This document shows positions 8,201 through 9,864 of a stretch of 64,000 nt of DNA, one piece after another. Location: assembly GCF_056712565.1 (NCBI RefSeq), contig NZ_CM160072.1; one strand, 5' to 3'. A program made the position numbers. Numbering within the stretch: the stretch's first letter is position 1; each line of letters starts with the position of its first letter.

Positions 8201-9864
8201 CGACTTGGTGGCGATCCTCAAAACGCTGGGGGCAGGGCGAGCGCAACTGCGTAAGTTAATTGTCGGTCAGTGGTTGATGGTGCTGGTACTTTCAGCCATT
8301 ACCGGTGGGGTGATAGGTCTGTTGTTCGAAAACGTGTTGATGGTGCTGCTCAAACCCGTGCTACCTGCCGCTTTACCTCCTGCCAGCCTCTGGCCGTGGC
8401 TGTGGGCGCTCGGCACCATGACAGTCATCTCGCTGCTGGTGGGGCTGCGACCATACCGCCTGTTGTTGGCAACGCAGCCTTTACGCGTGTTACGTAATGA
8501 TGTGGTTGCAAACGTCTGGCCGCTGAAGTTTTATCTGCCGATTGTCAGTGTGGTGGTTGTGCTACTGCTCGCCGGACTGATGGGCGGCAGTATGCTGCTC
8601 TGGGCGGTGCTGGCGGGCGCGGTAGTACTGGCTTTGCTGTGCGGTGTGCTGGGCTGGATGCTGCTGAATGTACTTCGCCGCATGACGCTGAAATCGCTAC
8701 CTCTGCGCCTGGCGGTTAGCCGCCTGTTACGTCAGCCGTGGTCAACGTTAAGCCAGCTTTCGGCATTTTCGCTCTCCTTTATGCTGCTGGCACTGTTGTT
8801 GGTGTTGCGTGGCGATCTGCTCGATCGCTGGCAACAGCAGCTACCGCCAGAAAGCCCGAACTACTTTTTAATCAACATCGCCACAGAACAGGTTACGCCG
8901 CTAAAAGCGTTTCTCGCGGAACATCAGATAGTCCCGGAATCGTTTTATCCGGTAGTGCGGGCGCGGTTGACGGCGATTAACGACAAGCCGACAGAAGGCA
9001 ATGGAGATGAGGCGCTCAACCGCGAGCTGAATCTCACTTGGCAAAATGCGCGGCCTGATCATAACCCGATCGTCGCCGGTAACTGGCCGCCAAAAGCCGA
9101 TGAAGTGTCGATGGAAGAGGGGCTGGCGAAACGCTTAAACGTTGCCCTCGGCGATACCGTGACTTTTATGGGCGATACCCAGGAGTTCCGCGCTAAAGTG
9201 ACCAGCCTGCGCAAAGTGGACTGGGAAAGTCTGCGGCCTAATTTCTATTTTATTTTCCCGGAAGGGGCATTAGACGGGCAACCGCAGAGCTGGCTTACCA
9301 GTTTCCGCTGGGAGAATGGCAACGGCATGTTGACGCAACTCAACCGCCAGTTCCCGACCATTAGCCTGTTAGACATTGGCGCGATTTTAAAACAGGTCGG
9401 TCAGGTGCTGGAGCAGGTAAGTCGGGCGCTGGAAGTGATGGTGGTGCTGGTCACCGCCTGCGGCATGTTGCTGTTGCTGGCGCAGGTGCAGGTGGGAATG
9501 CGTCAGCGTCATCAGGAGCTGGTGGTGTGGCGCACACTTGGTGCGGGGAAAAAACTGCTGCGCACGACATTGTGGTGTGAGTTCGCCATGCTCGGGTTTG
9601 TATCCGGCCTGGTGGCCGCAATTGGTGCGGAAACGGCACTGGCGGTACTGCAATCGAAAGTGTTTGATTTCCCGTGGGAGCCAGACTGGCGATTGTGGAT
9701 TGTTCTGCCGTGCAGCGGTGCGCTACTGCTGTCGCTTTGCGGCGGCTGGCTGGGTGCGCGACTGCTTAAGGGTAAGGCGCTGTTCAGGCAGTTTGCGGGG
9801 TGATGTGATAAAGCCGTTTATTTCTACCTGGTAGCATGAACAGCGTGCACAGAATCCCCCATCA

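What the first reader, a model, noticed from the sequence alone, without database searches (positions are those of the whole stretch)
9804..9861. ybbP and selU are directly convergent; no rhsD element
Only 58 bp separate the ybbP and selU stop codons. In K-12, as I recall, the rhsD element (rhsD, ybbC, ylbH, ybbD) occupies this site. This window therefore represents an Rhs-free state of the locus, useful for defining the Rhs insertion point.
Basis: partly seen in the sequence, partly recalled or inferred. Interest (0 to 1): 0.25.

Follow-up and report, generated by a model that had tools for sequence, protein, structure and literature searches.

The report
Rhs-free ybbP–selU junction, mosaic spacer
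In this E. coli strain the genes ybbP and selU really do end 58 bases apart with no Rhs toxin element between them, which is an already documented strain difference; the short spacer is a patchwork left by other rearrangements, not a clean 'before insertion' site.

Summary
Observation confirmed: ybbP (7389-9803, +) and selU/mnmH (9862-10956, -) converge with a 58-bp spacer, and the 64-kb window contains no Rhs sequence.

The window is identical to E. coli ATCC 11775. Its exact junction occurs in 127 of 5,426 complete genomes, including UTI89, S88 and APEC O1. The site has five main alleles: rhsD element (2,867 genomes), dinQ/agrB-like toxin-antitoxin module (1,315), Hcp-Tle1 plus DUF2931 T6SS effector island (~570), short BIME (456), and this 58-bp form.

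The window and K-12 share essentially nothing between the two stop codons, so the window adds little to locating an Rhs insertion point.

The 58 bp is a mosaic. Its left 31 bp equal the left arm and loop of a terminator hairpin otherwise found only with the Hcp island. Its right 27 bp equal the ancestral BIME-type right end, also present in E. albertii. The right arm of the hairpin is missing. The spacer is most likely a derived deletion or recombination scar.

Rhs absence at this locus in B2 strains was published by Jackson et al. 2009. Low interest.

The parts
6706..7392 (+). ybbA (ABC transporter ATP-binding protein), upstream partner of ybbP
   Evidence: NCBIfam NF007879 equivalog, 477 bits
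7389..9803 (+). ybbP, 804 aa, putative ABC transporter permease; stop codon TGA at 9801-9803
   Evidence: ORF list; NCBIfam NF041854, 1461 bits; annotated as ybbP in the identical ATCC 11775 record
9804..9861 (.). 58-bp spacer between the two stop codons. It has no Rhs sequence, no significant hairpin and no Rfam match.
   Evidence: Sequence; folding z = -1.1 (+) and -0.6 (-); no terminator-like site in the spacer; no Rfam hit; no K-12 Rhs-region hit in the window
9804..9834 (+). Left 31 bp (TGTGATAAAGCCGTTTATTTCTACCTGGTAG). Identical to the start of the Hcp-Tle1/DUF2931 island allele, where it forms the left arm and loop of a perfect 14-bp terminator hairpin. The right arm (ATAAACGGCTTTAT) is missing in the window.
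   Evidence: Junction comparisons. In the 5,426 genomes this left half occurs only with the Hcp island (565 genomes) or in the window-type junction (127). GC is 38.7% against 39.7% for the island. The hairpin is significant in ST131 (z = -4.7) and E. whittamii (z = -6.1).
9835..9861 (+). Right 27 bp (CATGAACAGCGTGCACAGAATCCCCCA). Identical to the right end of the short BIME-type spacer and near-identical in E. albertii. This is ancestral Escherichia spacer sequence.
   Evidence: identical in L003; E. albertii ...GGCATGAACAACGCGCACAGAATCTCCCCCA
9862..10956 (-). selU / mnmH, 364 aa, tRNA 2-selenouridine synthase; stop codon (TGA) complement at 9862-9864
   Evidence: ORF list; NCBIfam NF008749, 757.5 bits; annotation in ATCC 11775
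11025..11951 (-). allS, the conserved right-hand neighbour, confirming locus identity
   Evidence: NCBIfam NF007501, 640 bits; same gene order in K-12

Best explanation
The window shows the allele of the hypervariable ybbP-selU spacer carried by ATCC 11775 and by strains such as UTI89, S88 and APEC O1. I attribute these to the ST95 complex of phylogroup B2 from my own knowledge of the strains.

The allele is Rhs-free, and this lineage most likely never carried rhsD here. It is not a pristine empty site. It is a secondary, derived junction: 31 bp from the left end of the allele that carries the Hcp-Tle1 (Hcp-ET2-like)/DUF2931 T6SS effector island, which is half of the ybbP terminator hairpin, fused to the last 27 bp of the ancestral BIME-type spacer.

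The most likely origin is a single deletion or illegitimate-recombination event in an ancestor of this lineage. That event removed the right arm of the hairpin and whatever lay beyond it, probably the effector island, and joined the remainder to BIME-type sequence with an intact selU 3' end.

Shown here: the sequence mosaic, the allele census and the loss of the hairpin. Inferred: the direction of change and whether the island itself was once present.

A consequence, also inferred, is that ybbP and selU now converge with no recognisable intrinsic terminator between them.
For: (1) Gene identities and the 58-bp spacing.
(2) K-12 has 7,301 bp with rhsD at this site. There is no Rhs DNA in the window.
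(3) The left 31 bp are identical to the ST131-type Hcp-island alleles, where the sequence continues as a perfect 14-bp inverted repeat followed by a T-rich tail. The window stops exactly before the right arm.
(4) The hairpin is conserved between species with a compensatory change: E. coli GTTTAT/ATAAAC versus E. whittamii GTCTAT/ATAGAC. It folds far better than shuffles, z = -4.7 and -6.1, whereas the window spacer gives z = -1.1 and -0.6.
(5) Every other allele examined places a hairpin directly after the ybbP stop. Significant folds were measured for K-12 (z = -2.9) and Buttiauxella (z = -3.7, -4.6). REP palindromes are visible by eye in the BIME alleles.
(6) The right 27 bp and the selU 3' end are identical to the BIME allele and conserved in E. 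albertii.
(7) Census: 2,867 rhsD, 1,315 dinQ-like, ~570 Hcp island, 456 short BIME, 127 window-type, together 98% of 5,426 genomes. The left half occurs only with the island or in the window-type junction.
(8) All 60 listed window-type junctions are 100% identical and belong to related ExPEC/APEC strains, which fits a single event.
(9) GC of the left 31 bp (38.7%) matches the island (39.7%). The right 27 bp are at 55.6%.
(10) Jackson et al. 2009 infer that rhs position 3 arose after the split from the B2-type pathogenic strains.
Against: No extant precursor was found. No genome among the 5,426 has the left half and the right half separated by an island (at most one place per genome).

In every Hcp-island locus read (L004-L007, L090 and L091 in E. 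coli; L011 and L013 in other Escherichia) the island's right end replaces the last three selU codons. The window therefore cannot be a simple deletion within a present-day island allele. A second parent or an unsampled intermediate is required.

All six E. coli island carriers read have a T 8 nt before the ybbP stop codon, which the window lacks.

The window's flanking ybbP and selU sequences are closer to the BIME-type strain 3-72 than to ST131.

Only 1 nt of microhomology (G) is visible at the joint. The direction of change rests on the truncated-hairpin argument, not on a phylogeny.
Confidence: 0.7

Rival explanations
1. The 58-bp spacer is the pristine, ancestral empty site of E. coli. The Rhs element (K-12) and the Hcp island (ST131) later inserted into it.
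For: It is the shortest allele. Short convergent spacers of 47-56 bp exist in Buttiauxella. Jackson et al. place the origin of rhs position 3 after the split from B2, so a B2 strain is a plausible place to look for a pre-Rhs state.
Against: The outgroup E. albertii and many E. coli carry the BIME-type spacer instead.

The window's left 31 bp are absent from BIME, dinQ and Rhs alleles.

The window carries one arm of a hairpin whose other arm would have to arrive by chance at the tip of the inserted island. For a 14-nt perfect complement that is roughly 4^-14 (my estimate).

The allele is rare (2.3%) and confined to related strains.

K-12 shares none of the spacer with the window.
Confidence: 0.07
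2. The window derives from an island-free ancestral allele that had the complete hairpin followed by the ancestral right flank. A small deletion removed the right arm. On this reading the lineage never carried the Hcp island, and the island inserted downstream of that hairpin in other lineages.
For: It explains the intact selU 3' end and the 27-bp ancestral right flank without invoking a second parent. It explains why the ybbP-end SNPs of island carriers are absent from the window. The hairpin is conserved across species, as expected for a chromosomal ybbP terminator.
Against: No such island-free hairpin allele exists among the 5,426 genomes or the Escherichia outgroups sampled. The left half is always accompanied either by the island or by the window-type join. 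The hairpin's low GC matches the island, not the core genome.
Confidence: 0.2
3. The short junction is an assembly or collapse artefact of this particular sequence.
For: None beyond the generic possibility.
Against: The junction-spanning query is covered by 127 independently assembled complete genomes, including UTI89, S88 and APEC O1. All 60 that were listed are 100% identical.
Confidence: 0.01

Closest known systems
RhsD element of E. coli K-12 / conserved Rhs 'position 3' (ybbA..ybbB) of Jackson et al. 2009 (PMC2935791)
   Same: Same chromosomal site, bounded by ybbP and selU. The paper already scores presence and absence of Rhs here across strains, and reports the group of 'pathogenic strains' as lacking the clade I rhs expansion (that this group corresponds to phylogroup B2 is my reading).
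   Different: The window has no Rhs DNA at all. It shares none of the K-12 spacer except 2-5 nt next to the ybbP stop and about 7 nt next to the selU stop.
Hcp-ET2-type T6SS effector island (Hcp fused to a Tle1/DUF2235 phospholipase domain, followed by DUF2931 genes); Hcp-ET class reviewed in PMC6730261
   Same: The first 31 bp after the ybbP stop are identical to the left end of this island allele.
   Different: The Hcp-Tle1 ORF (Pfam PF05638 + PF09994) and the DUF2931 genes (PF11153) seen in ST131-type strains are absent from the window. The hairpin's right arm is missing. selU keeps its native 364-aa end, not the 368-aa island-fused end.
BIME/REP-containing ybbP-selU spacer (140 bp in strains 3-72 and CFSAN067215; 242 bp in E. 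albertii)
   Same: The right 27 bp and the selU 3' end are identical. The flanking ybbP and selU sequences are nearly identical to strain 3-72.
   Different: The ~110 bp that hold the two REP palindromes are replaced in the window by 28 bp of hairpin-left sequence.
dinQ/agrB type I toxin-antitoxin locus of K-12 (arsR-gor region; PMC3567139)
   Same: A paralogous module occupies this same spacer in 1,315 E. coli genomes: a dinQ-like 27-codon ORF plus an AgrB-family RNA (Rfam RF02891, 53.6 bits against a gathering score of 40).
   Different: It is not present in the window. The window's right 27 bp correspond to the module-free join GTGCA|CAGAAT.

Membership tests
Rhs element (RhsD / Rhs position 3) | Large rhs core ORF (YD repeats) with C-terminal tip and downstream immunity/orphan tips, between ybbP and selU | tested here: not met
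   Only 58 bp lie between the stop codons. blastn of the K-12 7.3-kb element against the whole window gives no hit.
Rhs element (RhsD / Rhs position 3) | Chromosomal position flanked by ybbA-ybbP and ybbB (selU) | tested here: met
   Same flanking genes as K-12 and as Table 3, locus 3, of PMC2935791. The site is the right one, but empty.
Simple (precise) empty insertion site for the Rhs element | Spacer sequence continuous with the sequences that flank the element in the occupied allele | tested here: not met
   Similarity to K-12 is lost 2-5 nt after the ybbP stop and regained only about 7 nt before the selU stop.
Rho-independent (intrinsic) terminator between convergent genes | Stable G+C-containing hairpin followed by a T/U run | tested here: not met
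   No terminator-like site in the spacer. Folding z = -1.1 and -0.6. Only the left arm of the hairpin seen in the Hcp-island alleles is present.
Remnant of the Hcp-Tle1/DUF2931 island allele | Sequence identity to the island allele's terminus that is not found in other alleles | tested here: met
   31/31 identity. The left half is found only in island carriers (565 genomes) and in window-type genomes (127).
Remnant of the Hcp-Tle1/DUF2931 island allele | Any island coding sequence (Hcp, Tle1-like domain, DUF2931) | tested here: not met
   blastn of the 4.2-kb island against the window hits only 9804-9844.
BIME/REP spacer | REP palindromes (GCCTGATGCG...CAGGCCTAC type) | tested here: not met
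   No REP palindrome is visible in the window spacer by inspection. Only the 27 bp distal to the BIME are retained.

The most novel reading that the evidence does not exclude
The ybbP-selU spacer is a dedicated exchange hot spot. Competition and addiction cargos (Rhs toxin, Hcp-Tle1 effector with DUF2931 genes, DinQ/AgrB-like toxin-antitoxin) replace one another as whole-spacer cassettes. Their breakpoints are pinned within a few nucleotides of the two stop codons, across Escherichia species. On this reading the 58-bp allele records loss of the Hcp effector island, leaving two convergent genes without a terminator.
Probability: 0.3. Interest if true: 0.35.

Novelty: already known. Interest (0 to 1): 0.15.

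Why it matters
Mostly as a correction. Anyone using this window as the 'empty' reference for RhsD would place the insertion in the wrong context. The spacer here is a lineage-specific mosaic and shares nothing with K-12 between the stop codons.

The BIME-type spacer, shared with E. albertii, is the appropriate pre-Rhs reference. Even against it, the Rhs allele is a whole-spacer replacement.

More broadly, the locus is a neat small example of a hot spot where at least three unrelated toxin systems alternate. The polymorphism for Rhs itself has been documented since Jackson et al. 2009.

Tried and rejected
(1) Deletion between the CTGGTAG direct repeats in the hairpin loop and at the island's right end. 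The predicted product is 103 bp and does not resemble the window; 838 of 1,000 shuffles align at least as well. Rejected.

(2) A search for an island variant that keeps the ancestral right flank. Every Hcp-island locus read uses the same right junction inside the selU 3' end (L004-L007, L090 and L091 in E. coli; L011 and L013 in other Escherichia). None was found.

(3) O157:H7 was examined as a possibly less truncated Rhs right junction. It is the same as in K-12.

(4) An SNP mosaic of the flanks, to assign parentage. The window's flanks are closest to the BIME-type strain 3-72 on both sides. This does not decide the direction of change.

(5) Rfam and promoter/terminator scans of the spacer found nothing.

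(6) Literature searches for 'rhsD' with 'ybbP' and for 'dinQ', 'type I toxin' and 'ybbP' returned no paper that holds ybbP together with the dinQ terms, and no listed title concerns these junctions. The papers were not opened. The older Hill-laboratory papers on Rhs in the ECOR collection, which I recall from memory, did not appear in the searches run.

Full report
**1. Observation**

The ORF list shows an 804-aa ORF at 7389..9803 (+) and a 364-aa ORF at 9862..10956 (-). That leaves exactly 58 bp, 9804..9861. NCBIfam equivalog models identify the ORFs as YbbP (1461 bits) and tRNA 2-selenouridine synthase MnmH/SelU (757.5 bits). YbbA and TesA lie upstream and AllS downstream.

The window is 100% identical to E. 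coli DSM 30083 = ATCC 11775 over the 1.1 kb tested, and that record annotates the same two genes.

**2.

In a K-12 MG1655 record the order is ybbP, rhsD (4,281 nt), ybbC, an RHS-core fragment, small hypothetical ORFs, ylbG (a truncated HTH/transposase-like gene) and then mnmH. That is 7,301 bp between the two stop codons.

Base-by-base comparison gives these results:
- The last 104 bp of ybbP are 100/104 identical between the window and K-12.
- The last 89 bp of selU are 86/89 identical.
- Between the stops, similarity is lost 2-5 nt after the ybbP stop and regained only about 7 nt before the selU stop.
- O157:H7 has the same Rhs junctions as K-12.

The Rhs allele is therefore a replacement of the entire spacer, not an insertion into the window's 58 bp. 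No Rhs sequence occurs anywhere in the 64-kb window.

**3. The site is multi-allelic**

Junction-specific megablast queries against 5,426 complete E. coli genomes gave this census:

| Allele | Genomes |
|---|---|
| K-12-type ybbP-to-rhsD left junction | 2,867 |
| ~711-bp spacer with a dinQ-like toxin gene | 1,315 |
| ~4.2-kb island: 667-aa Hcp-Tle1 fusion plus one to four DUF2931 genes | ~570 |
| Short REP/BIME spacer (140 bp in strains 3-72 and CFSAN067215) | 456 |
| Window-type 58-bp junction | 127 |

These five classes account for 98% of the genomes.

The island protein combines Pfam T6SS_HCP with a Tle1-like catalytic domain. The Hcp-plus-DUF2235 combination is the published Hcp-ET2 class (review PMC6730261).

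Carriers of the window-type junction include UTI89, S88, APEC O1, APEC O18, NU14, IMT5155 and 'ST95-32'. All 60 listed carriers are 100% identical across the junction. From my own knowledge these strains belong to the ST95 complex of phylogroup B2.

**4. Anatomy of the 58 bp**

The left 31 bp are TGTGATAAAGCCGTTTATTTCTACCTGGTAG (9804-9834). They are identical to the start of the Hcp-island allele. There the sequence continues ATAAACGGCTTTATTATTAG, completing a perfect 14-bp inverted repeat with a T-rich tail.

That hairpin folds far better than shuffled controls: z = -4.7 in ST131 and z = -6.1 in E. whittamii. The window's spacer does not: z = -1.1 and -0.6. E. whittamii carries the same island and the same hairpin with a compensatory change (GTTTAT/ATAAAC becomes GTCTAT/ATAGAC). 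This suggests the stem is under selection, most simply as the ybbP terminator.

In the genome collection this left half occurs only with the island (565 genomes) or in the window-type junction (127). Its GC content is 38.7%, matching the island at 39.7%.

The right 27 bp are CATGAACAGCGTGCACAGAATCCCCCA (9835-9861). Together with the native selU 3' end, they are identical to the right end of the BIME allele and nearly identical in E. albertii. They are ancestral Escherichia spacer sequence.

The spacer contains no terminator-like site, no promoter-like site and no Rfam family match.

**5. Outgroups**

A SelU-based scan of one genome per species showed that convergent ybbP/selU adjacency is conserved across Escherichia, Citrobacter, Kluyvera, Kosakonia, Pseudenterobacter, Superficieibacter and Buttiauxella. 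Among the 16 spacers extracted, lengths ran from 47 bp to about 4.1 kb; the tblastn coordinates imply gaps of up to about 5.5 kb (Superficieibacter electus, L035).

| Species | Spacer |
|---|---|
| E. albertii | BIME type |
| Escherichia sp. E1V33 | dinQ type |
| E. whittamii | Hcp-island type |
| Escherichia sp. MOD1-EC7003 | Hcp-island type (right junction) |
| Buttiauxella | 47-56 bp, each with a complete hairpin |
| Citrobacter, Kluyvera, Pseudenterobacter | porin-like 377-380-aa ORF, with or without ABC-transporter genes |

**6. Interpretation**

The window's spacer is best read as a derived junction. An allele with the complete hairpin lost the right arm and everything beyond it, and became joined to BIME-type sequence. 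Most of the evidence ties that hairpin to the Hcp effector island.

Two facts prevent a simple story:
- In every island locus read, the island's right end replaces the last three selU codons, giving a 368-aa MnmH. The window cannot be a plain deletion within a present-day island allele.
- No genome holds the window's two halves separated by an insert.

Two routes remain possible. One is recombination between an island allele and a BIME allele, with homology on one side and an illegitimate join on the other. The other is an unsampled intermediate.

The flanking SNPs place the window closest to the BIME-type strain 3-72 on both sides. All six E. coli island carriers read have a T 8 nt before the ybbP stop codon that the window lacks.

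A rival I cannot exclude holds that an island-free ancestor with the full hairpin suffered a small deletion. No such allele was found.

The reading that the 58 bp is the pristine ancestral site faces three problems: the E. albertii spacer, the rarity and clonality of the allele, and the half-hairpin. For the island's tip to supply a perfect 14-nt complement by chance is about 4^-14 (my estimate).

**7. Comparison with the literature**

Jackson et al. 2009 (PMC2935791) list this site as conserved Rhs locus 3 (ybbA..ybbB, ~523.6 kb). They score presence and absence across 20 strains. They infer that position 3 arose after the split from the group of 'pathogenic strains' that lack the clade I rhs expansion. 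Equating that group with phylogroup B2 is my reading.

The core of the finding, a B2-type strain without rhsD at this site, is therefore already known. The mosaic nature of the 58 bp and the alternation with an Hcp-Tle1 island and a dinQ/agrB-like module are small additions that I did not find described. They are ordinary comparative genomics rather than a new kind of system.

**8. Verdict**

- Observation: confirmed.
- Interpretation: partly supported. The site is Rhs-free and K-12 does hold rhsD here, but the window is a poor tool for defining an Rhs insertion point.
- Novelty: already known.
- Interest: low (0.15).

Noticed in passing
L002 (E. coli N427) 2005-2715; also L010 (Escherichia sp. 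E1V33) and L009: In 1,315 of 5,426 E. coli genomes the ybbP-selU spacer holds a paralogue of the dinQ/agrB type I toxin-antitoxin system. It consists of a 27-codon dinQ-like ORF (2222-2305, -) and an AgrB-family RNA (2566-2654, +; Rfam RF02891, 53.6 bits against a gathering score of 40), flanked by 40-nt direct repeats. The 233-bp spacer of L009 keeps a single repeat copy, which looks like the module-free form. The two literature searches that included 'ybbP' found no paper mentioning dinQ at this locus.
   Followed up: partly
L004 20505-24725 (SaT040, ST131 type); L006, L007, L090, L091; L011 (E. whittamii): A T6SS effector island lies between ybbP and selU. It encodes a 667-aa Hcp fused to a Tle1-like phospholipase domain (Hcp-ET2-like), followed by DUF2931 genes whose copy number varies from one to four between strains. 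It is present in ~570 E. coli genomes and in at least two other Escherichia species.
   Followed up: partly
L004 24726-25832 (mnmH of island carriers): In island carriers the island's right end replaces the last three selU codons and the stop. MnmH is then 368 aa with a different C-terminus, instead of 364 aa. The functional effect is unknown.
   Followed up: no
L044 (contig labelled 'uncultured Alistipes sp.' MAG) and L085 (394-bp contig labelled Trinickia soli): Both carry E. coli-like selU (99% and 95% amino-acid identity). L044 also carries the K-12-type ylbG-selU junction. These are most likely mis-binned or contaminating E. coli DNA in public assemblies.
   Followed up: no
L014-L025 (Citrobacter), L023, L024: In Citrobacter, Kluyvera and Pseudenterobacter the same convergent spacer holds a conserved porin-like 377-380-aa ORF and, in some species, additional ABC-transporter genes. 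The site is variable well beyond Escherichia.
   Followed up: no
window 63211-63335: About 125 bp are 85% similar to the REP/BIME part of the dinQ-type spacer. This is another BIME copy elsewhere in the window.
   Followed up: no
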